Shown in pieces: positions 1 to 49,397 of a stretch of DNA of 62,313 nt. The translations under genes were made by a program, and so were the position numbers. The stretch is taken from the IMG/VR virus record IMGVR_UViG_3300025261_000001; one strand, given 5' to 3'. A model generated the notes under the pieces. That model saw nothing but the letters and a program-made list of their open reading frames with translations, had not been told where the DNA came from and searched no databases. Positions within the stretch are counted from its first letter, which is position 1; every line of letters starts with the position of its first letter. The DNA comes from a virus.

Positions 1-127
1 CCGGTAAACTGATCGGCGTGATAACGATGGACCCGCCGTGCGTGATATCGATCATAACATCAACCGCATCACCTTGCCAACCCAGGGTTTGAATCAGGTT
101 GCTATTGCCAGCGTTGTCTAGCTGCGC
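1..127. repeat. Terminal direct repeat, copy A (identical to 62187..62313)
   Basis: First 127 nt (ccggtaaactgatcggcg...gttgtctagctgcgc) recur base-for-base as the last 127 nt of the window. This is typical of an assembler overlap on a circular or circularly permuted genome. Confidence 0.95.
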
Positions 128-2557: not shown

Positions 2558-3006
2558 AGGTTGAACGTCCCCACCGGGTAGCGGGCCTGTCCCGAGCCGC
2601 CCAGACGCTTACACACGCCCACCCAGCCGTTATCGTGGTTGTGTCCATGGCCGTGCTGCGGACGGAGCATGCAGACCAAGTGCGCCAGTTCGTGCGGCAC
2701 TACGTCTTCAAGTACGGCATTCAGGTTTTGTTCCACGGCGGCTTTACTGATCCGCACCAGCAACAGCACCTTGGCATTAGGTCGGCGGATCACGCCCGCC
2801 GCACCGGCTGCGCCGCAATGCTTGAGCTTCAACATGGACTCTTGGTTATGGAACGCCAGAACAAAATCGTGAGGCTCGTGAATCTGGTACGTGTTCTTAG
2901 CCTCAGTCCACAGAGCCTTAGCCCGCTTGATGACTTTATCAATGTCATCGGTACGGTTGTCGGCGTTGTAGTATTTAAAGGGTGACCCCTGCAACCCGTC
3001 AGGCAT
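2554..3006 (-). CDS. SprT-like zinc metallopeptidase
   Basis: 150 aa. HExxH in VVPHELAHLVC, followed by HGHGHNHDNGWVGVCKRLGG, matches the SprT-like layout. Confidence 0.65.
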   Translation of the reverse strand: MPDGLQGSPFKYYNADNRTDDIDKVIKRAKALWTEAKNTYQIHEPHDFVLAFHNQESMLKLKHCGAAGAAGVIRRPNAKVLLLVRISKAAVEQNLNAVLEDVVPHELAHLVCMLRPQHGHGHNHDNGWVGVCKRLGGSGQARYPVGTFNL

Positions 3007-3196
3007 GACGCTTAAACTCCGCTACTGGTTCGTGTGAGAAGTGGACAATCACGTTGTCCGTTCCGTCTTCCAACTTTGTCTTGCACCAGCACTCCCGACT
3101 TAATTCGTGGCCCTTGCCGAACAAAGGTATGACGTGGAAGTCTGTACCTTTGTCGAACACACCCCACTGACCGGCTGAGACTTTATGCGGCTTCAC
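2999..3196 (-). CDS. Hypothetical protein
   Basis: 65 aa. GTG start with AGGAGG 6 nt upstream, and a GTGA overlap with the upstream stop. Confidence 0.6.
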   Translation of the reverse strand: MKPHKVSAGQWGVFDKGTDFHVIPLFGKGHELSRECWCKTKLEDGTDNVIVHFSHEPVAEFKRHA

Positions 3197-3378
3197 CAGT
3201 TACCTCCTATCGTCTCAGCTTCCCCGAACGTACACGGCCCGCACAGCCCTGTGGCTGGATGGACTGGCGATTGCCCGCATACTTCACACTCGTAATCCCA
3301 TCGCGGTTCATTGCTATTAGGGTCGAGCGGTGGCCGTGGGTCTACGTGACCTTGCCCGTCTACGCGCTTATTATTCAT
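3193..3378 (-). CDS. Small Cys-rich (zinc-ribbon-like) protein
   Basis: 61 aa containing CEVCGQ...17 aa...CGPC. Confidence 0.55.
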   Translation of the reverse strand: MNNKRVDGQGHVDPRPPLDPNSNEPRWDYECEVCGQSPVHPATGLCGPCTFGEAETIGGNW

Positions 3379-3380
3379 GG

Positions 3381-3614
3381 CTAGCCCAGCCTGTATTCAA
3401 GTTGGCGAGTCATTTCCATCAGGCGTTGCCGCGTGATGCGGTTCGACAAACCTTCGATCTTGATCCAAGGGTTATCGTAGCTAATCGCCGGATGGCACCC
3501 GTAGACTTTATAGTACGCGTCCGTGTACCGTTCCACCAGTCCTTTCAGACTGCGATCCATCTTGTGCTTGCTCTGTTCCTTGGGCATCAGCACGTTAGAC
3601 TGAATGGTGACCAT
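3381..3614 (-). CDS. Hypothetical protein (paralogue of 2264..2557)
   Basis: 77 aa, ...YYKVYGCHPAISYDNPWIKIEGLSNRITRQRLMEMTRQLEYRLG. Confidence 0.6.
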   Translation of the reverse strand: MVTIQSNVLMPKEQSKHKMDRSLKGLVERYTDAYYKVYGCHPAISYDNPWIKIEGLSNRITRQRLMEMTRQLEYRLG

Positions 3615-3617
3615 GGG

Positions 3618-3794
3618 CTACACCCCTACGTCATACGTGCCGGTTTCGATAGCCACATAAAGTTCATCAGACGGAGCGTCCTTTGGAACTTTACTGTTCA
3701 GAGTAGCTACCAGAGCGTTAGCTTCCGTTACATGCGCTGAGTCGTACTTAGCCACTTGAACGCCGGTAATCAGATTAATTACTTTGATGGTCAT
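3618..3794 (-). CDS. Hypothetical protein (58 aa, below ORF-track cut-off)
   Basis: ATG 3794..3792 overlaps the upstream stop (ATGA). Peptide MTIKVINLITGVQVAKYDSAHVTEANALVATLNSKVPKDAPSDELYVAIETGTYDVGV fills an otherwise empty 177-nt gap. Confidence 0.5.
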   Translation of the reverse strand: MTIKVINLITGVQVAKYDSAHVTEANALVATLNSKVPKDAPSDELYVAIETGTYDVGV

Positions 3795-4165
3795 ATGTGT
3801 ACGCCTCCTTCCATAAATGGGACTGCGACTCTAACGGTTGAGGAAGACTGCATCTTACGACATTCTTCCGGGTCAGCATACAACATTCCCCACCTGCCGT
3901 CATCATACTGGTTGGCGTACAGGTAGCCCGTGGCATGTGCTGGCGGGGGTCCGAAGCACGGGATATTAAGTTCTTCCTTGGTGGTATGGTTAACGCCTTC
4001 ACCTTTCCCGTTGACCCATCCAAGCTCACCACTCTTGTCACCTTCACCCATCAGAATAACGTCCATGTCTTTCGCGGTGACGTTACTCACCTGAACTACT
4101 TTCCACCAATGTCCTTTGGCGTCTCGTACGGTCAATCTTTCGTGGGGTGTGACATTGTACGTCAT
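3791..4165 (-). CDS. Hypothetical protein
   Basis: Start placed at the internal ATG 4165 (MTYNVTPHERL...) with GGAG 8 nt upstream. The track start at 4240 would overlap the upstream gene by 70 nt. Confidence 0.6.
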   Translation of the reverse strand: MTYNVTPHERLTVRDAKGHWWKVVQVSNVTAKDMDVILMGEGDKSGELGWVNGKGEGVNHTTKEELNIPCFGPPPAHATGYLYANQYDDGRWGMLYADPEECRKMQSSSTVRVAVPFMEGGVHI

Positions 4166-4170
4166 GTGCG

Positions 4171-5091
4171 TCACTCCAAGTTGTCGTAGATATCTCGGGG
4201 TAGATCGTCGGAGTTGCCGTAGATACTGCCAGCATCCCACGGTCTATTAAATACGTAGTCCTTGTGGTACATGTCCCGGATGGCCCAGCCATCGCCGCTC
4301 TGTGAGCCGGGGCCGTACTCCCAGATAAGGTACTCATGCAAATACTTCTGGTTGAACTGGCAGACCATGTGACCGAGTGAGTATACCTCACGGCAGTCTG
4401 TTTCGGGGTTATCGTAAACACCTACTTCGGCGGTGCGTTCCTGCTCGGGCAAGCTCTGCTGATGCCGTCCTGTCTGCTGCGCATGCTTCTGCACAGCTTC
4501 CTTCATATACTGCACCAGTGTACTGAGCGGCGTATGTCCGGCAAACTCACAGTAAAGCGTGTCGCCGTTATGCTGGCTCAAGCTACACCGCATTTCGATC
4601 ATGTCATCATAGGCACGACGACCGAACGTTACTTTGATGAACTTAAACTCTTGCTTGAGCCCGTCTATAAAGTTCTTATACGCCTCGCCAGTTAGCAGGC
4701 ACATCGCCGTATCGACAAAGCTCCAATCGCCTAACCGCACGATGGTACGTGAGTCTTCGCCACGGTTGCGGGCGGTACGCTTAAAGTCATCACGCGCCAT
4801 CATACGCTGTTCCAACTGAGAGTAATCAAAGCCGTACATGCCCCGGTATCTGTCTACCTTTGACATAGCCTCAAACATTTCCCTAAGCTTCTCCCAATTA
4901 GTAGGCGGGATAGTCTTAGCCTCGTCAATCATTTCTATGTCAAACGTCTGACGAGTCTTAGGTACATTAAACTTCGGTTCAATCTCCACCTGCGATTCGA
5001 TGAACCGCTTGTCGCCGCGTATCTGCGCTTCCTTGGACTTAAACTGTGTGAGTTGCTTCGCGGCAACTTTATTGCCGTACTTACGCGACAT
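4171..5091 (-). CDS. Hypothetical protein (306 aa)
   Basis: Start placed at ATG 5091 (MSRKYGNK...). The track start at 5166 lies inside the upstream gene. Confidence 0.65.
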   Translation of the reverse strand: MSRKYGNKVAAKQLTQFKSKEAQIRGDKRFIESQVEIEPKFNVPKTRQTFDIEMIDEAKTIPPTNWEKLREMFEAMSKVDRYRGMYGFDYSQLEQRMMARDDFKRTARNRGEDSRTIVRLGDWSFVDTAMCLLTGEAYKNFIDGLKQEFKFIKVTFGRRAYDDMIEMRCSLSQHNGDTLYCEFAGHTPLSTLVQYMKEAVQKHAQQTGRHQQSLPEQERTAEVGVYDNPETDCREVYSLGHMVCQFNQKYLHEYLIWEYGPGSQSGDGWAIRDMYHKDYVFNRPWDAGSIYGNSDDLPRDIYDNLE

Positions 5092-8648: not shown

Positions 8649-8930
8649 TTAGTATCCCTCGCATGACAAGTCAAACATCGCCCGATCGTTTGCCTCACGC
8701 TGCACCCATGCGGCTTCGTTAGCCGCTGCCAGCGCCGCCACGCGCAACGCTTCAATCAACCCGTGGACTGCTATGGCTTGCATGTCGCGCGCCTCTCGTG
8801 CCGTGGCGTAGCCGCTGGCGCTGTGGCTTAGGTCGCCATCGATACGGATCGTATAGCGCCATACTTGCGGCCTGCTCGGATGGTACGGGGCGCGGTAGAT
8901 GCGCCCCGGTTCAACGGTATGTTTACTCAT
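8649..8930 (-). CDS. Hypothetical protein
   Basis: 93 aa. The start overlaps the end of the upstream gene by 4 nt. Confidence 0.6.
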   Translation of the reverse strand: MSKHTVEPGRIYRAPYHPSRPQVWRYTIRIDGDLSHSASGYATAREARDMQAIAVHGLIEALRVAALAAANEAAWVQREANDRAMFDLSCEGY

Positions 8931-9823
8931 ACGTCCTCCATGCTGCGCTGCTTTTCAATCTGCTTATGGACCCATGACACCGGGTCGCTACCAAACTCGT
9001 AAGCGTCCGTAAGGTAGCCGCCCTGCATCACAACGTCCTGCGGGTCGAGGTTGAGATACTTACGGAACTCTCGTTCACGGTGGCTGTTGCCGTGCTGTGT
9101 CGGATGGCCGAACAGCCAATCACACCCGGCCATCATATCGACGTCTGTGGCCACACTCGCCAGCTTGAACGCTACGGCTCGGCAATACTGGCGCGTTGCA
9201 AAGACGGCTATGGTATTCATCAAGTCTACCGGGTGAGTCTCGATAGGCACCGTCCCGATATAGCCTGCCCCGCTGCGTTGCAGTGCCACCAGTGCGTGTA
9301 ACTCTACCGGGCGTTCTTCTGCCGTGCGCATAATGAGTGCCGCAATGCCAGCCGCACGGCGTTCTAGTTCGGCCTGTCCCGTGCCACCGGACACGACGCA
9401 CTCAATGTAATACTTGATCGGCGCTACGTTGTTTTCTTCGCGTGCACGTATCCGCATGCTATCGGGTGCGCCTGCTAGGTAGTCGCCTACCATGGGGTAG
9501 GCACCCATGAGACTAGGGTGCCACTGGTCGATAGCACGATCACGGAATGACGCGTCAATCTGATTAACCAAGTCGCGCGCCGGTTTCATGTGGGACTCAG
9601 TGATGCCGCGCTCGCAGTGGTGGACGGCATTACGTTCCGAAGTCTCCCCATAGAACGCCTGCGCGCCACGGTAGTTACCGCCATAAGCTAGCTCAATAAG
9701 TGAGCGTCCGCTCTCTGCCGTGCGGTACGTCTCGCTAACACTGGTGAACTTCTCCACCACAAGCGAACCGTAATAACGTCCATCGATCTTAACGCGCTCG
9801 CTTATTTTCTCTTGGCTAGACAT
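8927..9823 (-). CDS. Hypothetical alpha/beta protein immediately downstream of the AAA+ ATPase (possible partner subunit)
   Basis: 298 aa with an alternating beta/alpha-type pattern around IKYYIECVVSGGTGQAELERRAAGIAALI. No clean DxSxS MIDAS motif, so a vWA assignment is not supported. Confidence 0.6.
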   Translation of the reverse strand: MSSQEKISERVKIDGRYYGSLVVEKFTSVSETYRTAESGRSLIELAYGGNYRGAQAFYGETSERNAVHHCERGITESHMKPARDLVNQIDASFRDRAIDQWHPSLMGAYPMVGDYLAGAPDSMRIRAREENNVAPIKYYIECVVSGGTGQAELERRAAGIAALIMRTAEERPVELHALVALQRSGAGYIGTVPIETHPVDLMNTIAVFATRQYCRAVAFKLASVATDVDMMAGCDWLFGHPTQHGNSHREREFRKYLNLDPQDVVMQGGYLTDAYEFGSDPVSWVHKQIEKQRSMEDV

Positions 9824-9860
9824 AATCGTTTCCCGTTAGTTAGTGTTGTGTGGGTTTCAA

Positions 9861-11273
9861 TTACATACGGTTCGTAACGGTGCGCCATTGATCGTCGCTC
9901 ATACCCTTGCGGATAGTCGCAGCAATAGCGAAGTCTTGCGTAAACCCAGCGCGGATAAGCGCGGCACCACGGATGCTAGCGCGAGGCGACACCACATGCT
10001 TGATACCTGCACCCTGCACCGCTTTGCGCACCTTGTGCACATAGTTCACCCACGCATCATTGCTCGCGAGCGCACGCTCTAACGCTTCGTCGTAGCCCCA
10101 CTCCAACATGATGAACCGATCCACGGTAGCCGCATCCAACTTGTTACGGCCCACATACTCATGGGTTGCACCACTGCCGAACGTATTAGCTGCCGCGATC
10201 ACGATACAGTTTTCATGCCGCACAACGTCACCGTCCGGGAACACACAGTGACCATTCTCAAGCGCGGCATTGAGTGCCACCATGGCTTGCGGATTGCTTG
10301 CGTCCACTTCGTCAAACAGAAACACCCCGCCATGCTCATACGCTTCCCGGAACGGCGTGCGGTGCACCGTGCCGCCCGCATCACGAAAGCCAGTCAGCTT
10401 GTAGTCTGTATCTACTGCGCCGGTATGGTGGAAGTCCAAACCCATAACCTTTGCCGCGTTCATTGCTGCGGTCGTCTTGCCGCTGCCAGCCGGACCGGGA
10501 AGCCATACCGGGAACGCGTAGCCGTTATGGTCACGCACCTGTAAGAGCGACAACAACACCGGGAATTGCTTGTGCTGAATCCCCGCATTTTCCGTGCTGG
10601 TATTGCCTTCGCTATCCGTGCGCGCAATGTGAACCACGGTAGGCACCGCGCCAATCTTTGCTAGCTCCTGCCCGCACACTGCCCGCGCAATCGCTTCCAC
10701 CTGCGCCGGATCAATCGCAGGCTTATTGCTCGCTGCCAATGCCGCCATGAGATTAGCCAAAGCATCCTTTACTTCTGGCTGTGCATTCGCTTCGCCGTTG
10801 TCCGTAGGCGTCACTTGAGCCGCACTATGCGTAGCGGCTGGCTGCGCACGCTGCACTCGGCGCGGATTAGGTAGCGGCACGCTATCTGTCACCATAGAGC
10901 TAACAATCTCCTGTATGTCATCACGCGCTGCGCTGGCTTGTTCCATGGTCTGGTGATTCCCGGTGTTGTTGAAGTCGCCGTCTTGAATGTATGCGGTATG
11001 CGGCTTGCCCGCCTTACCTTTGCCCGCCTCAATAATGGCATGGCTTGATGCTTCCAACGCCGGTAGATGCGCTTCCATTTCGTTCATGCGGTCGCCGTAC
11101 GTCTGCACCATGTGTTGCGCGTAGTTCGCCTTGAACGGTTTGGCGAATGCCTTGATATCCGTAGGCTTTGCACGGCCAGACATCGCCATTTCCAGTTTGT
11201 TTATGTCGCTGGTAACAAGGTTTGCAATACGCAGCGCCATAGGGTGAGAGAACTTAAACGATAGAGTTGCCAT
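9861..11273 (-). CDS. AAA+ ATPase, MoxR/AAA_5-like C-terminal domain with a ~230-aa unique N-terminal region
   Basis: 470 aa. Walker A LPGPAGSGKTT, Walker B VFLFDEVD, followed by ...IVIAAANT...RF, typical of dynein-related/MoxR AAA_5 modules. Confidence 0.7.
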   Translation of the reverse strand: MATLSFKFSHPMALRIANLVTSDINKLEMAMSGRAKPTDIKAFAKPFKANYAQHMVQTYGDRMNEMEAHLPALEASSHAIIEAGKGKAGKPHTAYIQDGDFNNTGNHQTMEQASAARDDIQEIVSSMVTDSVPLPNPRRVQRAQPAATHSAAQVTPTDNGEANAQPEVKDALANLMAALAASNKPAIDPAQVEAIARAVCGQELAKIGAVPTVVHIARTDSEGNTSTENAGIQHKQFPVLLSLLQVRDHNGYAFPVWLPGPAGSGKTTAAMNAAKVMGLDFHHTGAVDTDYKLTGFRDAGGTVHRTPFREAYEHGGVFLFDEVDASNPQAMVALNAALENGHCVFPDGDVVRHENCIVIAAANTFGSGATHEYVGRNKLDAATVDRFIMLEWGYDEALERALASNDAWVNYVHKVRKAVQGAGIKHVVSPRASIRGAALIRAGFTQDFAIAATIRKGMSDDQWRTVTNRM

Positions 11274-12085
11274 GATTTAGGTGTCCTATTGTTAGTGTTG
11301 CTGGTGTCACTTCGGGGTTTAACTTCGGCTCGCTTTCAAGGCGAGGCATGAGTATAGCAGGGTCTAGAATAAAGTTCTACTAGGTCTGCCACGGGCAATA
11401 GATCGATGGATAAGCGAACCTCGCCCGGTTTGTTTCCTGTGTTTCCTAGTGGTGTCGGTGAATGAGTGTCACGCACTGGCAGGAAACAAACCGCGATAGG
11501 TTACAAGCGCACTAAAAGGTTACAGCGAGTTAATAGGATACAAGCGGGGTCTAGCTAGCAGGTGTTGCCGGTAAGCGTATCGAGTTAGATAGACGGGCAG
11601 GGTTTAACGAAAAATGTACAGACAGACTAAGGTTACAAAAGAAACGCATGGAATCAATCACTTACGTGCGGCGTTTCCTCTGTTTCCTCTCTAGACAGTA
11701 GCTAGCGAAAATCGAGGCGTTTACAGCACACGCACTAAGTAACCTTGTTTCTAAATGGTGTAGTTACGCACTAATCGGAAACGGCAGGTCTAAATGGTTA
11801 CTAGTGGTGGTGCGGTTTTCGCCTCGCGTGTGAACCTCTATTAAAAACTGGATACAGGTTACAGTTAAATACTACAAATGAGCAGTACCAATGGTTCCCG
11901 CTGTTTCCTACTTGTAACCTTTTATGGAAATTAAACGGAATTCTAATAATCCGTCTGTGTTGAACCTACGGCTAGGATACATAGCAATTTACGCACACAG
12001 TAACCTTGTAACTTTCCTGTGTACCTAATACGGCCACCGTCCATGGCAGCCTATTAAGTCGGGGTGAACCCTATTTAGAACTTAA
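11274..12085. repeat. Gene-free iteron island (candidate replication origin or regulatory array)
   Basis: No ORF of 60 aa or more in any frame. Four GTTTCCNNTGTTTCCT-type motifs (11432, 11673, 11893, 12012). Twelve GG(T/A)TAC / GTAAC(C/T) motifs. Five (A/G)CGCAC motifs. A 13-bp perfect inverted repeat at 11426-11438/11481-11493. Confidence 0.8.
11344..11379 (-). promoter_or_regulatory. Candidate extended -10 promoter upstream of the AAA-ATPase operon
   Basis: On the - strand, TGCTATACT (-10 TATACT at 11356..11351 with an upstream TG). Weak -35 TAGAAC at 11379..11374 with a 17-nt spacer. Confidence 0.3.
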
Positions 12086-12304
12086 TTAATAGGTAAACCC
12101 AGCTTGCACCATCGCATTACCTTTTCTGTACACAACGTGATTGACATCATCACAGTCGATTAATTCATACTTGCCAGTTGCGCGGTCGTAATCTCCACGC
12201 TGATAAACCTTATTACTGTCCGGCTTGAGCTTAATAAACTCGCCTTTCGGTAGAGACTTAATCATATACATACCCAGTTCCACGGTATTAGCTTGCGTAG
12301 TCAT
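12086..12304 (-). CDS. Hypothetical protein, first gene of the leftward arm
   Basis: Start at ATG 12304 (MTTQANTVELG...) with GGGAG 8 nt upstream. 72 aa. Confidence 0.65.
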   Translation of the reverse strand: MTTQANTVELGMYMIKSLPKGEFIKLKPDSNKVYQRGDYDRATGKYELIDCDDVNHVVYRKGNAMVQAGFTY

Positions 12305-12348
12305 ATGCGAGACTCCCATTAAGTGACGGCGTAAACGTTGAAAGAGTA

Positions 12349-12369
12349 ATTAACTAGATATTAGTTAAT
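12349..12369. promoter_or_regulatory. Operator-like palindrome ATTAACTA-N5-TAGTTAAT
   Basis: Perfect 8-bp inverted repeat with a 5-bp spacer. It lies between the candidate early promoter and the first leftward gene. Confidence 0.4.
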
Positions 12370-12409
12370 CGGAACTACGGATTAAGCGGCCCGGAGCCTT
12401 TCTTACCGT

Positions 12410-12445
12410 AGACTCTATTATACCATCCTTTTTGATTAAGTCGGA
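12410..12445 (-). promoter_or_regulatory. Candidate early leftward promoter (extended -10)
   Basis: On the - strand, TGGTATAAT (consensus TATAAT at 12422..12417 with TG at 12425..12424). -35-like CCGACT at 12444..12439 with a 16-nt spacer. Flanked by CTTAATC(CG) repeats. Confidence 0.5.
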
Positions 12446-12751
12446 TTAAGTTTAATTATCCCGGCCAGTATTATCTCTGATTAATTCCATCCGGCAGGCC
12501 ACGGCGGGGGTAGGGGGCACCGGACCAAGCGATTTCGCACCCCCCTGTCGATCCGGCAAGCCCACTCCGACATACATACTAGAATACCCTTGTAACTCAG
12601 ATAATCCGCGCATACTTCGATCTACTTGAGATAGACACCACCCCGTCAATCTGTTCCCAGAAAATATCTCGCACCCTTTGAAAATTCGCCCTTGCGTCGG
12701 CAGTGCGGCCCCGCGTACTCTGTAACCCTATCGACCCGGACGTTGTAGAAT

Positions 12752-13387
12752 ATGCAACAGCACCCAGCCCCCGCAGCCTTTAATGACTCTGTAGCCCTAC
12801 GTGCGCAGAACCTACGCTTCCGTGGGATAGGCAACCCCTACGCTTTCTTGAATGGCATTGGCATTGTACCCATTAAGGAATTCCTGTTCCGTGGGGCTAC
12901 GATCATCGAGCTAGCGGAAACCATCAACCTTCCCGTCAGCACTATACGAAACTGGATCGAGCAAGAAGGCCACCAGAACGATATTGACGAGGCTAGCACA
13001 CTCTCCGCAGAAGGCTATCTGGTACAAGGCGAGAGGATGTTGCGTACTGCGGCTAATAAGTTCGAGTTGGATCGGGCAAAGTCAATGCTGGAACATGGAC
13101 GTTGGCTGGCGTCGAAACGCGATAAGAAAACCTATGGTAACCTTCCCGGTGAACAGGGTGGTGCCGCAGCCGTCAGTTATACATTCAATATCGGTGCAGA
13201 TAATGCGCAGATCAACATTGCACAGCAGACCAACCTGCGACATAAGGGCGAGGAAGATGCACCTCCACCGGTCACATTTGACTTAAATACATTCCAGATC
13301 GACGGACATAAACCTGATCACTTGCAGAAAGTTCACTCGGACTTTCCGGCCATTGCTGCCCTAGAAGTCCCGGAGGACTACGAGTGA
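12752..13387 (+). CDS. terS: Terminase small subunit
   Basis: 211 aa. HTH-like ATIIELAETINLPVSTIRNWIE. The stop overlaps the GTG start of the large terminase (GTGA). First gene of the rightward arm. No clear SD, so the start is uncertain. Confidence 0.65.
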   Translation: MQQHPAPAAFNDSVALRAQNLRFRGIGNPYAFLNGIGIVPIKEFLFRGATIIELAETINLPVSTIRNWIEQEGHQNDIDEASTLSAEGYLVQGERMLRTAANKFELDRAKSMLEHGRWLASKRDKKTYGNLPGEQGGAAAVSYTFNIGADNAQINIAQQTNLRHKGEEDAPPPVTFDLNTFQIDGHKPDHLQKVHSDFPAIAALEVPEDYE

Positions 13388-37217: not shown

Positions 37218-40200
37218 ATGGCTGACGGATTATCGGCATTCGGCTTACCGCCGCAGCAGAACGCACCCCCGTTACCGCCGCCCGCGCCTGTCCAACCGAA
37301 CTACCCAATAGCAGCCCCCGGCACAGTCGATGCGGGGGCTTCGCCGTTTATGGGTCAACGGTTACCGCCTGCCGCGAGCGTACCTCCGTTACCCCCGGCT
37401 CCGCCCGTCGCTACTGCGCCAACTAATAATGGGCCGCGCGGTTTAGGTACGCCGCCTGCACAGGATGAACCGCACCCGCTGACACTGCCCGAAGCTTTGC
37501 AGCAGTGGGCACAGGTCAATGGTCGCAAGCCTACGGCTGATGAATTCGACCAGATTGCTAATGACTATCGCACTAATACTTTCGTGCCTACAATCACGAA
37601 GCTAAAGGGTGTAAAGTCAGATGCTATTAAGGCCGAAGAAGCTTCGTTCGATAACCAAGTACAGCAAGTCCGTAATCAACTTTATCCGGCTCCCCCGCCG
37701 AGTGCTGGCGGCACCGCTGGTAATATAGCGCTGTCTGCGGGCCAGCAATTCGGCGGACGCCTACTCAATAACGCAGCGCAGGTATTCGGTTTAGCTGGTG
37801 GTGGTTTAGCTGGTGGTGCTGCGGAATTAGGTGTTCCGGGCGCAGCGGCTTTACGTGACTATCTGTTCCGTGGCGTCGATCCTAATGCCAAGGGCAGTGG
37901 CATGACGGACGATCAGGCCGTACAAGCAGCTTTACAGCGTACAGGTGCCGATAAGCATTTGAATGATCCGCGTTTTGCTGGGTTGATTCAGGAAATTACA
38001 CAGCGCGCGATTGCTAATAACCATCCTGACGATAGCGCCAGCTATACCACAAATCAGTGGATGAACGCAGCCCACCAACGCAGCCCATCCGGTGCAGTAA
38101 TTGGTGACGTAGCTGCATTCGTGCCGCAGACTTTATTAGGTCCGGGTGGCGTAGCTATCGCATCTGCGGCTCCTTCGGGTAATACTGCTGAACAGCAGCT
38201 TGGTCAGGGTCAGCAATTAAGTCCGGTCTTAAAGCAGTTCGCTGTAGATAGTGGACTTAATCTGCTACTGACTAAGCTTGCACCGGGCTATGGTAAGTCA
38301 CTACTATCCAAGATTCTCACAGGTGCAGGTATCGGTGTCGGTACAGGTGTAGCACAGCAGACTTTAGACGCTCAGGTTAATCCCGAAGCGAATAAGTCGC
38401 CTACACTTGAAGACTTAATGAATCCGCAGACGGCGACGCAAGCAGGTATCGGCGCACTACTGGCCGCACTGCACGGCGGCGCGGCTACACCTATCCTCAA
38501 TAAGCTCCGCAGCAAGTCCGCAGAGGCCCCGGCTAGCGCGCCTGCCGCCGAGACGGCCCCGAACGCTACCCCTGCCGAGGGTGCAACGCCTGCCGCCGCG
38601 CAGGCCCCGGCACAAGCCCCCAGCACGGCCCCGGCTGACCGCTGGACGGCTGCAATGCAGGACGCACCGGAGCAGGGTTTAGCAGACGCAGATTTCGCTA
38701 AGCAGTCCAAGGCTACGCTTTCTGACTTTAACCAGAAGGCTAAGCTCTATGCGTCTACGGTTAAGAATAGCAAGACACCAGAAGCGGTTGTGGATAACGC
38801 CACGGCGCTCGCTTCGCGTAACCCCGCATGGGCAGATATGTCCGGCGAGCAGCGCGCCACGCTGGTAGGTGACTTGGCTACCACGCTGGGCAAGAAGGCT
38901 GGCGTGAAACCTGATGCTATCTCGGATCACTTAGCATCGTTACAAGGCGCACCTACGGAAGCTGCACCTACGGCGGAAGCTCCTACCGCAGAGGCTACAC
39001 CGCCTGAACAGGCTGCACCTACGGCACAAGCTCCGCTGGCAGAAACGCCGACGCCGCCCGAGTTGCAGGGTCAACAGCCTACCGTTAATAAAGTCGCAGT
39101 CGATCCGCTCAAGGGTGCCGCTGACCAATTAAGTGCATATTTAAGTGGTGACCAGACGGCTGTACCGGATCAAGTTAAGACCAGTCCGATCTACCAAGCC
39201 TTGCAGGGTGCGGGATTAAAGTCTTCGGATGAAGTCATCAATGTACTGCGTAAGTTCAATGATGATGGCTCAGTTAAGCCGACTGCCGAAGTAACAGGTA
39301 CCAAGCTCGCTGGTAATCGCTTAAAGAAGGGCGGTGCAGCTAAGACCGCTAACCAACAGATTGACGATCAACACAGTGCCGTCGCAAGCACTGTGGCGGA
39401 AGCTTTGTCTGATAAGTCTACGCCGACTGACACCGCTAATAAGCTCAAGGCTACAGCCAAGGGCATTAGCCAGAAGCGCTATAATCAGGAATATCTGAGT
39501 GCGCTGATGAATGATGGTGCGCCGACACAATCGGAAGCGAAGTACCGCAACGATCCTAGCTTTACCGAAGCTCGTGCCGCACTGCGTAAGGGTGAGATTA
39601 CCTCGCCTGACCAGTTAGGTGATTGGCTCAAAGCCCACCGCGCCACAAGTGAAGGTACCTCATTCGGGGAGCAGGCTCAGGCGATTACGCCGGACAACAA
39701 TAACAAACAGATGGGCGCTCTGTTAGGGGCTAAGTCCGTTAAGGCTGATGCGGTAGTAGCACGTAAACATGCGCGTGATGTGCATGACGCATTAGTTAAG
39801 CTGGGCGAAGACTCTAAGACCATTAAGTCGATGACGCTGGGCGATGCTCAGAAGATGCTGCAACGCCGTCTTAATGGGGACATTGGTGCCGAGCCGCTTC
39901 CCGAACCTACTAAGCCGCTTAAGTCCACAAAAACTAAGGCTGCAAAAGCACCGGCGGCAGAGGCTCCCGCTAGTGTAGACCCTTTAGAACAAAGCCTCCG
40001 CGAAAGGCTGGGCGATAAGCTCAGCCTAAAGGCTACGAGCGAGCTATACGATCATGTAGCCGACGCGCGTGGAGGCGGTGATGCAGGTAACCTATATGAC
40101 AATATCACGGGCCTGTTAGAGTCTGGTGATATTACCAAGGATGATGCTAAGTGGTTACGCAAGCTTGGCAAGGGCGATAGCGTCAATGATTTAATTGAGA

Positions 40201-45060: not shown

Positions 45061-47964
45061 TCAAGATACGGCGATTGCCGTGGGGTCGATCGGAAGTTCT
45101 TCAATAGACTTAACGAGAGCTTCATGGGTTAGGTCTATCTCCCATACCTTGAGATTAAGTCCGGGCAAATTAGTGCCAGTGGTCAGACGTTTCTGCAAGT
45201 TGGAATTAATGATGACACCGATGTCTTGCAGTTCCTTGCGAAGCCAACTCGGGTCGATCTTGCGCAGGTTGCAGTATTCGCGAATACTCTGGATCGAAAT
45301 GTATCCACGATACGGCTGCTTGCTGACATACTCCAAGCGGGCTTTAATTGCGTGCTGCTGGCCGTTCATCGCTACCAGATCAAGCTGACCATCATTGATT
45401 CGCACGATGGCAGACAGGTTGGTATTAATAAATTCAGACAGCGTACTGATGGGATCGGACACCGAAGTCTTCACGACCGTACGTACTTCATCGCTCTGAC
45501 CTAATGTACGGTTTACCAAGTTCTCTACATCGTAGCTATGCAGCTTGAGCGCATCGCGGCTGATCTTGCCGCCTACCAGTACACACGCCAGCAATGCACC
45601 CCAGAACCGTTCTTCGTTACGCAGCTTGCCTTTAGCTACGATGCCATCGATAGCCTTCTCTAAGATAGCCTTGATTTGAGTGGCACGAGGCAGAACGTAT
45701 TTAATATATTCCCGTCCAGCAATTCCATAGTTCTCCTTGATGACTTGTAACGCTCTGTCAAGGCGGACCTTATATTCTGGGTGGGACGGTTGTATATTAA
45801 GTTCAAAGATACGCATTGCCTCGGCATTGTAGCCTCGACGTGCGTTTGCCAACTTATCGTATAGGGAGGTGTTTGACGTAGAGCAGACAATAGTATCCCA
45901 GAACGTTTCATTGACTTTATTATTTCCTTCGCGAGTTGCGCGCATCTTGCCGCGACCGCCAGTGAAGCTAAGTACGAAATTGCTAAGGCGATCCCCTTCC
46001 ATCTTGGTCACTTCATCAAACGCCACCGGCACGGATGCAAGGTAGCCAATCTGATTATAGATGGAATTATCGGTGTCGTTCACCAGTACATGGTTAGAAG
46101 TCGGCTCACCCCACACGGACGTCATAAACTTCATCGCCGTAGACTTACCTGCACCCGACTGGCCCACGATATTGTACAGCACGCCACTGTATTCTGTGAG
46201 CGCCATTAGCGGGGCCGCGAAGCCGAGCATACTGGCAAGAATGTAGGGGTCGCTATCAGGGATATCGGCGTAGACGCTAAATGCTTGCTTCCACTTACCA
46301 ATCTCTCCCTTAGCTTCCGTAGCCTTCCCAGCTTCCTTCAAGAACGGAGCTACACCGGCAGGAACGAGTTTACCTTCCTTGTTGATGTAGCCACCGCCCA
46401 CGACAAACTTGGGATCGGTACTAAACGTGTCTCGCCATCCGAAACGACTGAACTCGATTTCTGCTGCGTGGTTCATCTGTAGATGCCGAATGTAGTCAAC
46501 GAGATACTTGCAAAGGTGAGCGGCTTTATTAAATTCCGCAATGACGCCTTTATCGCTAAGGTACTGATTAAGTTTCTTAGCTTCGGCTAGCAGACCCGAT
46601 GGCAGGCGAAACTTCTTAAGGCCGTCATGTGGTAGCCAAAGATGAATCTCCATCGCCTCGTTCTCGGTCGCTTCGGTACGTAGGCGTTTAGTGGGATAGA
46701 AGTCGTAATCGTAGATACGGTTAATAACTTCGTCCCATGTCCCGTTCTCTTGCTTAACCTTAGTTCGGACGTAGATACCACCTGACTCTCCACGGAAATA
46801 CGGAGACGGGGGCAGCGGAATGGTGACTTCCTCTGTGGACTTATTACCTGCTTCGTCCTGTACAACGGCTGTAACGACTTCTGCTTCTGTGGCCGGTACA
46901 TCGAGTCGGGCTACCTGTAGCGGAGTCTTGACGGTATCTGCGAAGGGGCATCCCTTGCAGCGTTCGGGATTAATTGAACGGAACTTATTGCATGTGGTCG
47001 GGCCAGTCTGGGCCGCAGAAACCTGGGCGTACTTTAAGTATGTTGCTTCGGGATCATAATCATTATGTCCCTGCGATAAAAGGTGTGCGACCTTCTCTTT
47101 AGAGATTGTAGCGCCTTGCTTAGTACGGAACTCTAGATATGGTGCCAAGCCAAGCATGGCATACCATTCCGGTTCGCTGGCCGTAGCCTTATTTTTGAGA
47201 TATTCTTTTGACCAATTGCACTTCTTAACCATAGCCGCAAGATCGGTCGGCCCACTGTCAACGACTGTGGTGCCAATGTCTACGGTCTTCGGACCATCAT
47301 CCTTAATGATACGGTTAAGCGTATTGCTGAACGTGCCGAAGTCTAGGTACTCATCGAACGTCTGGATAAACTCTACAGGCGTAGCGGGGTCAGACTTCAA
47401 ATTGAAGGACAGGGGTACACGCAGTACACCGGCACTGTCAGATACGCGCGATCCATCCGCCACCACTTCGGGAGCGATGGTTTCAATAGCTCGCTTGAAT
47501 TTATGTGCGATCTTCATCCATAGCTTAGACTCTACACCCTCGGCCATGGGCCAGTAGACATGGAGTCCAAAACCAGAATTAATGATCGTAGGCTGCGGCA
47601 TATTAAAGGCCGCTCGCACTACTTCAACACCGGCCAGCGCATCATCGAAGTTAGTATAGAATCCCGGCTTATCGTCGCGGATATCTACGTCTAACACAAA
47701 TACGCGGGTGAGTTGTGCGTTCTGCTGGATACGTACGCGATCCTTGCCACCGACTTTAATTGTCTTCTCCCGCAGAGTCGAAATGCAGAAGTAGTAATTA
47801 TATCGCTGGAAATTAATGCGCTGTAATGCAGCCGCAAACTGTTCGATATTATCGAACGTAAGGTGCTTAAAGTAGGGCTTAGGTTCGGCGGGTACTAACC
47901 ATGCGAGGCATGGCCTACCCTGCTCCGATAGCACGGAGCTAAAAAACTCCACCTGTGATTGCAC
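45061..47964 (-). CDS. Primase-polymerase (AEP) fused to an SF3 (D5-like) helicase
   Basis: 967 aa. AEP motifs VFVLDVDIRD and NSGFGLHVYW. SF3 Walker A VGQSGAGKST, Walker B PVAFDEV, motif C VCSTSN. GTG start with AGGGG 5 nt upstream. Confidence 0.85.
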   Translation of the reverse strand: MQSQVEFFSSVLSEQGRPCLAWLVPAEPKPYFKHLTFDNIEQFAAALQRINFQRYNYYFCISTLREKTIKVGGKDRVRIQQNAQLTRVFVLDVDIRDDKPGFYTNFDDALAGVEVVRAAFNMPQPTIINSGFGLHVYWPMAEGVESKLWMKIAHKFKRAIETIAPEVVADGSRVSDSAGVLRVPLSFNLKSDPATPVEFIQTFDEYLDFGTFSNTLNRIIKDDGPKTVDIGTTVVDSGPTDLAAMVKKCNWSKEYLKNKATASEPEWYAMLGLAPYLEFRTKQGATISKEKVAHLLSQGHNDYDPEATYLKYAQVSAAQTGPTTCNKFRSINPERCKGCPFADTVKTPLQVARLDVPATEAEVVTAVVQDEAGNKSTEEVTIPLPPSPYFRGESGGIYVRTKVKQENGTWDEVINRIYDYDFYPTKRLRTEATENEAMEIHLWLPHDGLKKFRLPSGLLAEAKKLNQYLSDKGVIAEFNKAAHLCKYLVDYIRHLQMNHAAEIEFSRFGWRDTFSTDPKFVVGGGYINKEGKLVPAGVAPFLKEAGKATEAKGEIGKWKQAFSVYADIPDSDPYILASMLGFAAPLMALTEYSGVLYNIVGQSGAGKSTAMKFMTSVWGEPTSNHVLVNDTDNSIYNQIGYLASVPVAFDEVTKMEGDRLSNFVLSFTGGRGKMRATREGNNKVNETFWDTIVCSTSNTSLYDKLANARRGYNAEAMRIFELNIQPSHPEYKVRLDRALQVIKENYGIAGREYIKYVLPRATQIKAILEKAIDGIVAKGKLRNEERFWGALLACVLVGGKISRDALKLHSYDVENLVNRTLGQSDEVRTVVKTSVSDPISTLSEFINTNLSAIVRINDGQLDLVAMNGQQHAIKARLEYVSKQPYRGYISIQSIREYCNLRKIDPSWLRKELQDIGVIINSNLQKRLTTGTNLPGLNLKVWEIDLTHEALVKSIEELPIDPTAIAVS

Positions 47965-47978
47965 GTCTGCCCCTGCGG

Positions 47979-48260
47979 TTATGCTGCGATGGTACTAATA
48001 AGTTGTTCCAGAATAGTCTGCTTCGCATCCTGTGAGAGCGCAGCATCTAGAGGCAGCTTACCATCCTTTGTCAGTGCTTCGATCTTATCTAACGCGCTGT
48101 CTATCGACTCGCGAACGGTGGCCAGCGGTTTAGCCCGCTGGCCCTTCCGTAAGATCAAGTAGATGGTTGTGTAATGAACTTTAGACAGCGCCGCTAGATT
48201 CCGGGCATTAAGTCCGGAAGTATCTAATACAGAATTAATTCGAGCGGCGATGTCTGTCAT
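47979..48260 (-). CDS. HTH (XRE-like) DNA-binding protein
   Basis: 93 aa. GLNARNLAALSKVHYTTIYLILRKG resembles a Cro/C1-type HTH. TAATG coupling to the upstream gene. Confidence 0.5.
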   Translation of the reverse strand: MTDIAARINSVLDTSGLNARNLAALSKVHYTTIYLILRKGQRAKPLATVRESIDSALDKIEALTKDGKLPLDAALSQDAKQTILEQLISTIAA

Positions 48261-49393: not shown

Positions 49394-49397
49394 TGTC

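What the first reader, a model, noticed from the sequence alone, without database searches (positions are those of the whole stretch)
11274..12085. 812-bp gene-free island packed with iterons and inverted repeats in an otherwise gap-free genome
Seen in the sequence:
- No ORF of 60 aa or more exists in any frame between the AAA-ATPase start (11273) and the stop of the first leftward gene (12086). Most other gene junctions in this genome overlap by 1-11 nt.
- Four tandem half-site motifs GTTTCCNNTGTTTCCT-like lie at 11432-11447, 11673-11688, 11893-11909 and 12012-12026.
- There are twelve copies of GG(T/A)TAC or its complement. The forward copies are at 11499, 11518, 11536, 11631, 11796, 11850, 11857 and 11975. 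The complementary GTAAC(C/T) copies are at 11739, 11914, 12000 and 12008.
- Five (A/G)CGCAC motifs lie at 11471, 11507, 11730, 11766 and 11991. Two of them head a longer near-repeat acgcacNNagtaaccttgt (11730 and 11991, 17 of 19 identical).
- A perfect 13-bp inverted repeat cggtttgtttcct/aggaaacaaaccg lies at 11426-11438/11481-11493.

Inference: this is a multi-site protein-binding array. It is most simply the replication origin for the prim-pol/SF3 helicase, and/or a regulatory hub of the early arm. Transcription into one or more ncRNAs cannot be excluded, because the early promoter at ~12420 reads into it. Its size and motif density are unusual for a 62-kb phage.
Basis: partly seen in the sequence, partly recalled or inferred. 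Interest (0 to 1): 0.7.

Follow-up and report, generated by a model that had tools for sequence, protein, structure and literature searches.

The report
Iteron array, probable phage replication origin
The 812-bp gene-free stretch is a real array of about 20 copies of one short DNA motif that is conserved across a family of uncultured ~62-kb soil phages, and it is most likely the phage's replication origin, a known kind of element.

Summary
The interval 11274-12085 has no ORF longer than 46 aa and is the largest gap in a complete ~62.2-kb phage genome. Its motifs are far above chance: AGGWWACA occurs 12 times against 0.17 in shuffles, and 12 of the 19 genome copies lie here.

The core is G-W-W-A-C-A (GAAACA, GTTACA or GATACA). 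It often extends to a ~17-bp iteron, CAC(T/C)-N5-GWWACA. Copies lie in both orientations and commonly form tandem pairs 7, 9 or 18 bp apart.

Nine relatives (TerL 57-84% identical) carry a 0.6-1.0-kb array of the same core between the AAA-ATPase and TerS genes. The sites are much better conserved than the spacers. A conserved leftward extended -10 promoter sits at the left edge, and four relatives have DnaA-box-like sequences.

The phage's 967-aa prim-pol/DUF927 helicase resembles the SaPI Rep and SCCmec Cch initiator-helicases, which bind short iterons flanking an AT-rich centre. Its C-terminal region gives only a weak winged-helix-like fold match.

Best reading: an iteron-type lytic origin (confidence about 0.55), possibly also serving as a transcription-control region. 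The ncRNA, hidden-gene and packaging-site readings are disfavoured. This is a new member of a known kind and of moderate interest.

The parts
11274..12085 (.). Gene-free island as reported. It comprises the promoter and leader of the AAA-ATPase gene (left ~150 bp), the iteron array, and a 3' hairpin of the p77 gene.
   Evidence: No ORF longer than 46 aa. Largest gap in the genome. 14 of 16 indel runs against L021 are not multiples of 3. No tblastx match to the relatives L001-L014. Against L021, short stop-free stretches match only where the DNA itself is conserved.
11426..12026. Array proper: about 20 GWWACA-type sites (GAAACA, GTTACA, GATACA and GAAACG/GTTACT variants) in both orientations. 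Under the relaxed pattern, 11 sites face plus and 11 face minus.
   Evidence: 16 of 23 core sites are kept as sites in L021.
11417..11502 (.). Inverted-repeat module. Two minus-facing sites (TGTTTCC TG TGTTTCC, 11431-11447) and a plus-facing AGGAAACA (11481-11488) form 23-nt arms around a 40-bp spacer.
   Evidence: I1, 87% complementary.
11475..11546 (+). Run of four plus-facing sites spaced 17, 19 and 18 bp apart (11481, 11498, 11517, 11535). It includes two long iterons, CACT-N5-GWWAC, at 11475-11487 and 11511-11523. TRF reports an 18-bp unit in 2.6 copies at 11498-11546.
   Evidence: Highly conserved in L021 (columns 201-252).
11630..11688 (.). Convergent module. AGGTTACA plus GAAACG (plus-facing, 11630-11646) faces the tandem pair GTTTCC TCT GTTTCC (minus-facing, 11673-11688).
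   Evidence: (I5).
11739..11802 (.). Divergent module. Minus-facing sites at 11739 and 11747, with a long iteron at 11747-11759. Plus-facing sites at 11778 and 11797, with a long iteron at 11770-11782.
11800..11893 (.). Most conserved block of the island, about 95% identical to L021 against 67% overall. It holds the AT-richest 40-mer (11839-11878, 75% A+T) with GGATACA-GGTTACA. Plus-facing sites lie to its left and minus-facing sites (11902, 11913, 12000, 12008) to its right. Candidate DNA-unwinding or helicase-loading centre.
11894..12012 (-). Right-hand set of minus-facing sites: the tandem pair GTTCCC GCT GTTTCC (11894-11909), TGTAACC at 11913, and GTAACC/GTAACT at 12000 and 12008. One plus-facing AGGATACA lies at 11974.
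11351..11359 (-). Leftward extended -10 promoter element TGCTATACT at the left edge of the array. It is conserved in relatives.
   Evidence: window TGCTATACT, L021 TGCTATAAT, L023 TGCTACAAT, L024 TGCTACACT, L003 TGGTAGAAT. All are on the same strand and at the same edge.
12032..12051 (.). GC-rich hairpin centred on CCATGG just after the p77 stop codon. In L021 it is a perfect 6-bp stem, GCGGCC/GGCCGC. It has no U-tract for leftward transcription.
   Evidence: plus direct reading of the sequence. Function not established.
12086..12319 (-). p77, the first gene of the leftward arm (72 aa from the second ATG). Homologues lie next to the array in L021, L024 and L008, and one gene away in L023. The predicted fold is a small SH3-like beta-barrel, not a helix-turn-helix.
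12417..12425 (-). Early leftward promoter: the only perfect TGnTATAAT in the genome (TGGTATAAT). It reads through p77 into the array.
45061..47964 (-). 967-aa prim-pol + DUF927 helicase with a C-terminal region that gives a weak winged-helix-like match. It is the candidate initiator that would bind the array, and it lies about 33 kb away.
   Evidence: Pfam DUF927 at 1.3e-27. PHROG primase/helicase families. AEP-type motifs in the family consensus. PDB 5dgk (Cch) at 3e-13 and 8tch (SaPI protein) at 3e-8. C-terminal model pLDDT 85, best fold match Cch at E 0.013, then very weak winged-helix proteins.

Best explanation
The island is the phage's origin of lytic DNA replication, of the iteron type.

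Proposed mechanism (inferred unless marked otherwise):
1. About 20 GWWACA sites, some extended to the ~17-bp iteron CAC(T/C)-N5-GWWACA, are bound by a phage initiator. The most likely candidate is the C-terminal region of the 967-aa prim-pol/DUF927 helicase.
2. Site clusters of opposite orientation bracket an AT-rich, highly conserved centre at 11839-11885. Two helicase rings would self-load there and melt the DNA.
3. The protein's own prim-pol domain primes, and the phage Pol A extends.
4. Forks then move outward along two roughly 30-kb arms whose genes are all co-oriented with fork movement.
5. Transcription from the strong early promoter at 12417-12425 crosses the array and may help to open it.
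6. The promoter at the array's left edge (11351-11359) may be controlled by the same bound protein.

Shown here: the sites exist, are far above chance, are conserved as sites across the family, and work at the level of double-stranded DNA. Inferred: which protein binds them, and that replication starts here.
For: 1. The array is real and under selection.
- Site columns against spacer identity: 91% vs 62% (L023/L024), 98% vs 87% (L003/L012), 75% vs 65% (window/L021). Retained sites: 25 of 29, 18 of 19 and 16 of 23.
- At five orthologous sites GAAAC and GTTAC have swapped, and at a sixth GATAC has become GTTAC. The site is kept while its central dinucleotide changes.

2. The feature is family-wide. 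Nine relatives with TerL 57-84% identical carry a 0.6-1.0-kb array with the same core between the AAA-ATPase and TerS genes. In several this coincides with a gene-free gap of 830-1000 bp. L024 has 26 GAAACA per kb, L023 has 21, L021 has 12 GTTACA, L027 has 9 TGAAACA, L028 has 5 AGGTTACA, and L029 carries a GTCACA variant.

3. Recognition is at the dsDNA level. Orientations are mixed in every array, and the strand majority differs among relatives. Same-orientation neighbours prefer spacings of 7, 9 and 18 bp.

4. The architecture is origin-like. An AT-rich centre is bracketed by opposed sites. Long iterons have two half-sites about one helical turn apart. A perfect DnaA box, TTATCCACA, lies inside the arrays of L023 (plus two near-boxes within 50 bp), L024 and L008, and L002 has a one-mismatch box.

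5. A cognate-type initiator is encoded. The phage carries a replisome (Pol A, SNF2 helicase, ligase, exonucleases). Its prim-pol/DUF927 helicase has a helicase domain matching SCCmec Cch and a SaPI protein. Its C-terminal model weakly resembles the Cch C-terminal region (E 0.013), followed by very weak winged-helix hits. According to PMC9371898, SaPI Rep and PriRep5 are self-loading initiator-helicases. Their C-terminal winged helix binds 6-12 penta- or hexanucleotide iterons arranged on both sides of an AT-rich region in opposite orientations.

6. The position fits. The array lies within 0.5 kb of the point where the two transcription arms diverge. The convergence point (~44.6 kb) is nearly antipodal on the 62.2-kb circle. 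The cumulative GC-skew minimum is at 12-13 kb.

7. There is precedent. A repeat-rich noncoding region is the experimentally defined origin of the PLE satellite (PMC7145576).
Against: - No direct evidence of origin firing or protein binding exists. Everything about function is by analogy.
- The window's own array has no DnaA box, even allowing one mismatch.
- In SaPIs the origin lies immediately downstream of rep. Here the helicase gene is about 33 kb away.
- About 20-34 sites over 0.6-1 kb is more than the 6-12 iterons reported for SaPI origins (PMC9371898).
- The orientation pattern is a series of alternating clusters, not one clean symmetric origin.
- GC skew and arm symmetry are confounded with transcription direction, so they are not independent evidence.
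- The conserved promoter at the array's edge fits a purely regulatory role equally well.
- The C-terminal fold match is weak: E 0.013 for Cch and above 0.3 for winged-helix proteins.
Confidence: 0.55

Rival explanations
1. The array is a transcription-control region. It would be a multi-operator platform for a phage or host regulator that controls the promoter at its left edge (11351-11359). Bound protein could also act as a roadblock between the strong early promoter (12417-12425) and the roughly 30-kb downstream leftward arm, timing the switch from early to middle expression. This is not exclusive of the origin reading.
For: - A leftward extended -10 element is conserved at the same edge of the array in the window, L021, L023, L024 and L003.
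- The genome's only perfect TGnTATAAT fires into the array.
- Sites occur as tandem pairs at fixed 7-9-bp spacing, as operators often do.
- The core G(A/T)(A/T)ACA resembles, from my memory only, half-sites of OmpR-type winged-helix regulators.
Against: - Twenty to 34 sites spread over 0.6-1 kb is far more than known bacterial or phage operator regions need.
- Most sites lie several hundred bp from the promoter.
- The AT-rich conserved centre and the DnaA boxes in relatives are not explained.
- No candidate regulator was identified. p77 is a beta-barrel rather than a helix-turn-helix, and the 93-aa protein at 47979-48260 has no family match.
Confidence: 0.2
2. The array is a packaging recognition region (pac or cos accessory sites) bound by the small terminase, or it marks the physical ends of the genome.
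For: - It lies 0.7 kb upstream of TerS (12752) in the window.
- From general knowledge, terminase small subunits are known to bind arrays of short repeats, as at lambda cosB, SPP1 pac and P1 pac.
Against: - The distance and the intervening genes between the array and TerS vary widely among relatives. The range is 0.7 kb in the window, about 1.3 kb with several genes in L003, and about 3.8 kb from TerL in L028.
- A different noncoding segment directly upstream of TerS (12516-12751, C-rich) is better conserved, at 78% to L021. It is the better pac/cos candidate.
- The assembly closes as a circle with a 127-bp overlap elsewhere in the genome.
Confidence: 0.07
3. The island encodes one or more structured non-coding RNAs, or a long structured leader, transcribed from the early promoter.
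For: - It is probably transcribed, because it lies between p77 and the AAA-ATPase gene downstream of the 12417 promoter with no intrinsic terminator found.
- Predicted folding is better than in shuffles: z = -5.1 on the minus strand and -3.1 on the plus strand.
Against: - Inverted copies of one motif give low folding energy on both strands without any RNA function.
- There is no Rfam match at gathering thresholds or at E up to 10.
- Motif strand preference flips between relatives.
- The one stem examined (I2, 25-nt arms, second-longest by separation-limited ranking) shows no compensatory change in L021.
- Conservation follows the 6-bp sites, not helices.
Confidence: 0.05
4. The array is a centromere-like or nucleoprotein-organising site, or a decoy or sink for a host DNA-binding protein. 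It would recruit many copies of a protein for segregation, genome compaction or titration.
For: - The site number and density are high (29-41 relaxed GWWAC matches per kb), as in the repeat arrays of some plasmid centromeres (my general knowledge).
- A second dispersed motif, ATTAAGT, suggests that this phage lineage uses genome-wide DNA-binding factors.
Against: - No ParA, ParB, ParM or TubZ-like protein appeared among the roughly 20 larger proteins scanned. That scan was not exhaustive.
- No integrase or plasmid-maintenance genes were seen, and the gene content looks lytic.
- No host protein with this specificity was identified.
Confidence: 0.06
5. The island hides a small protein-coding gene, for example one with an unusual start codon.
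For: A 52-codon stop-free stretch on the plus strand (from 11805) matches a stretch in L021 at 71% over 35 aa.
Against: - That stretch is the ~95% nucleotide-identical block, so any frame looks conserved.
- Seven of the 9 gap runs in the window row, and all 7 in the L021 row, are not multiples of 3.
- There was no tblastx match to L001-L014.
- Gene callers left the equivalent 830-1000-bp gaps empty in L021, L023 and L024.
Confidence: 0.03

Closest known systems
SaPI/PICI replication origins with their Rep or PriRep initiator-helicases (Staphylococcus aureus pathogenicity islands)
   Same: - Short (5-6 bp) iterons on both sides of an AT-rich region, in opposite orientations.
- The initiator is itself the helicase, sometimes fused to a primase (PriRep5), and reads the iterons with a C-terminal winged helix (PMC9371898).
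- The window's helicase domain matches a SaPI protein (8tch, 3e-8) and Cch (5dgk, 3e-13). Its C-terminal model weakly resembles the Cch C-terminal region.
   Different: - About 20 sites over 600 bp here, and up to 26-34 per kb in relatives, against 6-12 iterons in roughly 300-bp origins.
- Many sites extend to a bipartite 17-bp iteron.
- The array is about 33 kb from the helicase gene rather than immediately downstream of it.
- The element is a 62-kb lytic-looking phage with its own Pol A, not a satellite.
- Binding has not been tested.
Phage P4 ori and crr with the alpha primase-helicase
   Same: An octamer iteron is repeated many times in both orientations, in noncoding DNA lying kilobases from the initiator gene. 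It is bound by the C-terminal domain of a fused primase-helicase.
   Different: - P4's iteron sequence (TGTTCACC, as I recall) differs from GWWACA.
- P4 splits its sites into two regions (ori and crr). Here there is one contiguous array.
- No sequence relationship to P4 alpha was tested.
PLE (Vibrio cholerae phage satellite) noncoding-region origin with a RepA_N initiator
   Same: A large noncoding region with several repeat types is the experimentally defined origin. Its iterons are bound by the element's initiator (PMC7145576).
   Different: The initiator family differs (RepA_N), the repeats are longer and semi-palindromic, and the element is a satellite rather than a phage.
Iteron origins of theta plasmids and oriC-type origins with DnaA boxes
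   Same: Arrays of repeated initiator sites lie next to an AT-rich unwinding element (PMC4980987). Relatives L023, L024 and L008 carry perfect TTATCCACA boxes inside the array.
   Different: - Plasmid iterons are 17-22 bp direct repeats in small numbers (my general knowledge).
- The window's array has no DnaA box even at one mismatch.
- No Rep_3 or RepA-type initiator appeared among the proteins scanned.

Membership tests
Iteron-type replication origin of the SaPI Rep/PriRep kind | Multiple short (penta- or hexanucleotide) repeats recognised as double-stranded DNA | tested here: met
   About 20 GWWACA sites; AGGWWACA 12 observed against 0.17 expected. Orientations are mixed and no strand preference is conserved. 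Sites are conserved more than spacers.
Iteron-type replication origin of the SaPI Rep/PriRep kind | An AT-rich region with at least two iterons on each side pointing in opposite directions | tested here: met
   The 40-mer at 11839-11878 is 75% A+T and lies in the most conserved block. Plus-facing sites lie at 11778, 11797, 11851 and 11858 on the left. Minus-facing sites lie at 11902, 11913, 12000 and 12008 on the right. The array also holds further clusters, so the layout is more complex than in a SaPI origin.
Iteron-type replication origin of the SaPI Rep/PriRep kind | The element encodes a self-loading initiator-helicase with a C-terminal winged-helix domain | tested here: inconclusive
   The helicase homology is clear (5dgk 3e-13, 8tch 3e-8). 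The C-terminal model (pLDDT 85) matches the Cch C-terminal region only weakly (E 0.013, TM 0.41). Winged-helix proteins follow at E above 0.3.
Iteron-type replication origin of the SaPI Rep/PriRep kind | [quoted passage not shown] | tested here: not met
   The helicase gene is at 45061-47964 and no noncoding gap follows it. The array is about 33 kb away.
Iteron-type replication origin of the SaPI Rep/PriRep kind | Specific initiator binding and origin firing | not testable with these tools
   This needs EMSA or footprinting, marker-frequency analysis or a plasmid origin assay.
DnaA-dependent origin | A cluster of DnaA boxes (TTATCCACA or near matches) | tested here: not met
   No box with one mismatch or fewer lies in 11274-12085. 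Boxes are present in the arrays of L023, L024, L008 and L002, so some relatives may recruit DnaA.
Described RNA families (Rfam 15) | A covariance-model match at the gathering score | tested here: not met
   Only two tRNAs match in the whole window. In 11150-12800 the best hit is 21.7 bits against a gathering score of 82.
Terminase recognition site (pac/cos) | Fixed linkage to terS and coincidence with the genome ends | tested here: inconclusive
   Linkage to TerS is variable among relatives. The ends cannot be mapped from an assembly. A better candidate lies at 12516-12751.
Plasmid-type partition centromere | Adjacent or encoded ParA/ParB-, ParM/ParR- or TubZ/TubR-type genes | tested here: inconclusive
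   None appeared among the roughly 20 larger proteins scanned. Small ORFs were not all scanned.

The most novel reading that the evidence does not exclude
The array may not be merely an origin. It could be a high-capacity protein-loading platform that couples replication initiation to the transcription programme. It sits between the genome's single strongest promoter and the roughly 30-kb downstream arm. Once it fills with the initiator or another phage protein, it would both fire replication and gate read-through and the adjacent promoter. Sites would be read partly by DNA shape, because GAAACA and GTTACA interchange freely at orthologous positions. Such a combined origin and timing switch has not, to my knowledge, been described for phages.
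Probability: 0.15. Interest if true: 0.6.

Novelty: new member of a known kind. Interest (0 to 1): 0.38.

Why it matters
This work gives a concrete, testable origin candidate and a defined recognition motif for a large family of ~60-66-kb soil phages that appears to be uncultured. The family has at least 177 TerL relatives at E below 1e-100. It replicates with a prim-pol/DUF927 helicase of the SaPI Rep/Cch type.

If confirmed, it would extend the 'self-loading initiator-helicase plus short iterons' mechanism from small staphylococcal satellites and SCCmec to full-size phages of other hosts. It would also provide a minimal replicon for engineering these phages. The repeated GAAACA/GTTACA swaps at conserved positions offer a natural dataset on how such initiators read their sites.

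The element itself is an expected kind of feature, so the general significance is moderate.

Tried and rejected
- Rfam at gathering and at permissive thresholds gave nothing relevant.
- tRNA and tmRNA scan: the only two tRNAs lie elsewhere in the genome.
- DNA similarity of 10800-12800 to 50,697 phage records gave no match.
- The sigma-70 consensus scan of 10800-13000 found 0 promoters, and its single terminator-like hit is on the plus strand inside the array. Extended -10 elements were found by a targeted pattern instead.
- Direct DNA alignment to relatives at 78-80% TerL identity failed. Only L021/L022 (84%) align.
- The viral-contig scan with the primase-helicase produced no pattern hits. 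The genome-contig scan with TerL found no relative, so there is no prophage or host clue. The metagenome scan added little.
- The cultured distant relatives Rollin and RHph_TM3_14A (TerL 33%, primase 26%) are organised differently and show no GWWACA cluster.
- DnaA boxes are absent from the window's array.
- The stem I2 as an RNA helix is not maintained in L021.
- Hidden small gene: rejected on indel phase and the lack of conserved ORFs.
- p77 as the array's DNA-binding protein: the fold is an SH3-like beta-barrel resembling a ribosomal uL2 domain. The family is a widespread ~60-aa module also repeated in giant proteins. It is neither supported nor excluded.
- Covariation between the helicase C-terminal helix and the motif variant: the wing (KRLxxGT) and the helix (WLRRELxxxG) are conserved across lineages with GAAACA, GTTACA and GTCACA arrays, so this was uninformative.
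- GC skew: the minimum lies at 12-13 kb, but it is confounded with the switch in transcription direction.
Full report
**Context**

The window is a complete phage genome. Its ends overlap by 127 bp, which gives about 62.2 kb. Genes form two arms. The rightward arm runs from TerS (12752) and TerL (13384) to about 44561. The leftward arm runs from 12319 down through position 1 and on from 62313 to 44634.

The phage encodes its own replication proteins:
- family-A DNA polymerase (55268-57250)
- SNF2-type helicase (50119-51714)
- ATP-dependent ligase (53649-54563)
- PD-(D/E)XK nuclease and a 3'-5' exonuclease
- a 967-aa prim-pol + DUF927 helicase (45061-47964)

The nearest cultured phages are very distant: Pseudomonas phage Rollin and Rhizobium RHph_TM phages, with TerL about 33% and primase about 26% identical. 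The protein database holds at least 177 TerL relatives at E below 1e-100, many on 60-66-kb contigs. The two whose record names state a source come from forest and farmland samples.

**1. The observation**

The interval 11274-12085 has no ORF above 46 aa. It is the largest stretch not covered by arm-consistent ORFs of at least 60 aa.

The fourth 'tandem half-site' (12012-12026) is degenerate, and the copy at 12008 is GTAACT rather than GTAACC.

An unbiased k-mer comparison of the island with the rest of the genome picks out two 8-mers, AGGTTACA and TGTTTCCT. Each has 5 of its 6 genome copies here. These are variants of one motif, AGG-W-W-ACA, for which 12 of 19 genome copies lie in the island.

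In 2000 dinucleotide-preserving shuffles of the island, the mean count was 0.17 and no shuffle exceeded 3. The island also ranks first in the genome for local 7- and 8-mer repetition.

**2. Anatomy**

That site is (g)CAC(T/C)-N5-G-WW-ACA(A), about 17 bp, with its two halves roughly one helical turn apart. There are five such long iterons in the window: 11441, 11475, 11511, 11747 and 11770. Shuffles give 0.09. The remaining sites are short cores.

Across the window's array and eight of the relatives' arrays, same-orientation neighbours prefer centre-to-centre spacings of 7, 9 and 18 bp.

Sites face both ways in alternating clusters. It is two opposed copies of AGGAAACA with shared flanks.

The AT-richest 40-mer (11839-11878, 75% A+T) lies inside the best-conserved block. 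Plus-facing sites lie to its left and minus-facing sites to its right.

The left ~150 bp of the island is not array. It carries a leftward extended -10 element, TGCTATACT (11351-11359), and the leader of the AAA-ATPase gene.

To the right, past the p77 gene, lies the only perfect TGnTATAAT in the genome (12417-12425, minus strand). Early transcription from it would cross p77 and then the array.

**3. Comparative evidence**

Relatives were fetched through TerL. DNA in this zone does not align between most of them. Even so, each carries an array of the same core between the AAA-ATPase and TerS genes.

| Locus | TerL identity to window | Array interval | Main motif and count |
|---|---|---|---|
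| L021 | 84% | 3744-4576 (833 bp) | GTTACA x12 |
| L023 | 83% | 2693-3583 (891 bp) | GAAACA x21 |
| L024 | 81% | 3539-4538 (1000 bp) | GAAACA x26 |
| L003 / L012 | 79% / 86% over a fragment | ~2260-2990 | AGGAAACA and AAGAAACA, plus GGTTACA |
| L008 | 78% | ~2590-3300 | CGTGTTTC x6 and GAAACA pairs |
| L002 | 78% | ~2800-3420 | GTGTTTC x4, AAGATACA x3 |
| L027 | 69% | ~3900-4600 | TGAAACA x9 |
| L028 | 63% | ~1600-2250 | AGGTTACA x5 |
| L029 | 57% | ~1-600 | shifted core GTCACA, plus GTTACA and GAAACG |

Where pairs align, the sites are conserved far better than the spacers:

| Pair | Site-column identity | Spacer identity | Sites retained |
|---|---|---|---|
| L023 / L024 | 91% | 62% | 25 of 29 |
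| L003 / L012 | 98% | 87% | 18 of 19 |
| window / L021 | 75% | 65% | 16 of 23 |

In the window/L021 pair, six of the retained sites have a changed core. Five are GAAAC/GTTAC swaps and one is GATAC to GTTAC. So the site is kept while its central AA/TT step flips. I take this as a hint, not a test, that the central dinucleotide is read by DNA shape rather than by base contacts.

The position of the array relative to its neighbouring small genes is shuffled among relatives. It therefore behaves as an independent module.

A leftward extended -10 element sits at the same edge in five genomes.

Perfect DnaA boxes (TTATCCACA) lie inside the arrays of L023 (with two near-boxes within 50 bp), L024 and L008. 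L002 has a one-mismatch box. The window, L021 and L003 have none.

**4. What it is not**

It is not a hidden gene.
- There was no tblastx match to L001-L014.
- 14 of 16 indel runs against L021 break the reading frame.
- Gene callers left the equivalent gaps empty in L021, L023 and L024.

It is not a known RNA. An RNA role is unlikely for three reasons.
- The motif faces both ways, and the majority strand differs among relatives.
- The stem examined, I2, is not maintained by compensatory change in L021.
- The good folding scores (z = -5.1 and -3.1) appear on both strands, as inverted copies of one motif would produce without any RNA function.

It is probably not the packaging site. Its linkage to TerS is loose, and a better-conserved C-rich noncoding segment (12516-12751, 78% to L021) lies directly before TerS.

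**5. Most likely function**

The helicase domain of the 967-aa protein matches the SCCmec Cch helicase (5dgk, 3e-13) and a SaPI protein (8tch, 3e-8). The family consensus shows AEP-type primase motifs: LDVDI, SGxGLHVYW and a Cys cluster.

An AlphaFold model of residues 780-967 has mean pLDDT 85. It contains a helix-helix-strand-strand unit and matches the C-terminal region of Cch best (E 0.013). A list of winged-helix DNA-binding proteins, including Cdc6/Orc1 on origin DNA and PriRep1 on dsDNA, follows at weak scores.

PMC9371898 describes the SaPI Rep and PriRep5 proteins as self-loading initiator-helicases. Their C-terminal winged helix binds 6-12 penta- or hexanucleotide iterons placed on both sides of an AT-rich region in opposite orientations.

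The window's array fits that description, on a larger scale and at a distance from the gene. A repeat-rich noncoding region is also the proven origin of the PLE satellite (PMC7145576).

The array lies within 0.5 kb of the point where the two arms diverge. The arms meet again almost opposite on the circle, so forks leaving the array would run with transcription on both sides. This is consistent with an origin but is not independent evidence for it.

I therefore favour an iteron-type lytic origin, at confidence about 0.55. The main reservation is that the same sites may serve, partly or wholly, in transcription control of the adjacent promoter and of read-through from the early promoter (about 0.2).

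**6. Novelty and score**

Iteron-rich noncoding origins are a known kind of element, and a specialist would expect one near the divergence point of a phage genome. Four things are new here:
- the particular motif
- the large number of sites
- the bipartite long iteron
- the conservation of the arrangement across a large uncultured soil-phage family that uses a SaPI-Rep/Cch-type helicase

I rate it a new member of a known kind, with interest 0.38.

Noticed in passing
whole window; densest at 12053-12451: The 7-mer ATTAAGT/ACTTAAT occurs 63 times against about 6 expected from base composition (z = 23), by far the most over-represented 7-mer. ATTAAGY occurs 71 times against 14.9 +/- 4.1 in shuffles. 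Copies lie on both arms and in both orientations. Inside genes they occupy all four frame and orientation classes that avoid an in-frame TAA, so this is a DNA-level signal rather than a codon effect. It is lineage-specific: 1.01 per kb here, 0.74 in L021, and near zero in most other relatives. Eight ATTAAGY copies cluster around the p77 gene and the early promoter. Function unknown.
   Followed up: partly
window 12516-12751: A noncoding, C-rich segment directly upstream of TerS falls within a blastn match (12516-12800) that is 78% identical to L021. That is better than the array (68%) and better than neighbouring small genes. Similar C-tracts precede TerS in L003 and L008. It is a candidate pac/cos site or a late promoter and leader.
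   Followed up: no
window 12417-12425 (minus strand): TGGTATAAT is the only perfect extended -10 (TGnTATAAT) in the 62-kb genome. It is presumably the main early leftward promoter. Two ATTAAGT copies lie in its upstream region.
   Followed up: partly
window 12086-12319 (minus strand): p77 belongs to a widespread ~60-aa domain family with no Pfam model. It gave 302 representatives at E below 1e-3. Members stand alone, sit at the C-terminus of 100-380-aa proteins, or are repeated up to 15 times in 2-3-thousand-residue proteins. The predicted fold is a small SH3-like beta-barrel resembling a ribosomal uL2 domain. Its gene stays next to the array in several relatives even when the order is inverted, as in L008.
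   Followed up: partly
L023 3343-3390; L024 4249; L008 3059 and 3125; L002 3290: Perfect or one-mismatch DnaA boxes (TTATCCACA) lie inside the arrays of some relatives. L023 has three within 50 bp, flanking an AT-rich stretch. The window and L021 have none. This suggests that different lineages depend on host DnaA to different degrees.
   Followed up: partly
window 12032-12051: A GC-rich hairpin around CCATGG follows the p77 stop codon. In L021 it is a perfect GCGGCC/GGCCGC stem, even though the flanking sequence differs. It has no U-tract for leftward transcription. It could be an RNA-stability element, or a weak terminator for rightward transcripts.
   Followed up: no
window 37218-44561 (plus strand): A 2447-aa protein at the end of the structural arm carries an LPD38 'large polyvalent protein' domain at residues 2145-2323. 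The rest of the protein has no Pfam match.
   Followed up: no
window 47800-48400: This is the second most locally repetitive zone of the genome. CGCAGC occurs up to 9 times in 800 bp, in GC-rich sequence overlapping the start of the prim-helicase gene, the 93-aa ORF and the 388-aa ORF at 48260-49426. It is probably a coding-level amino-acid repeat.
   Followed up: no
window 1-127 and 62187-62313: An exact 127-bp direct repeat at the two ends of the window shows that the assembly closes on itself and the genome is complete.
   Followed up: yes
window 8927-11273 (minus strand): The gene immediately left of the island is a MoxR/CbbQ/CobS-like AAA+ ATPase (AAA_5 plus CbbQ_C; PHROG 'porphyrin biosynthesis'). 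It is followed by a DUF7192 protein. The pair is conserved in all close relatives. Its role in this phage is unknown.
   Followed up: no
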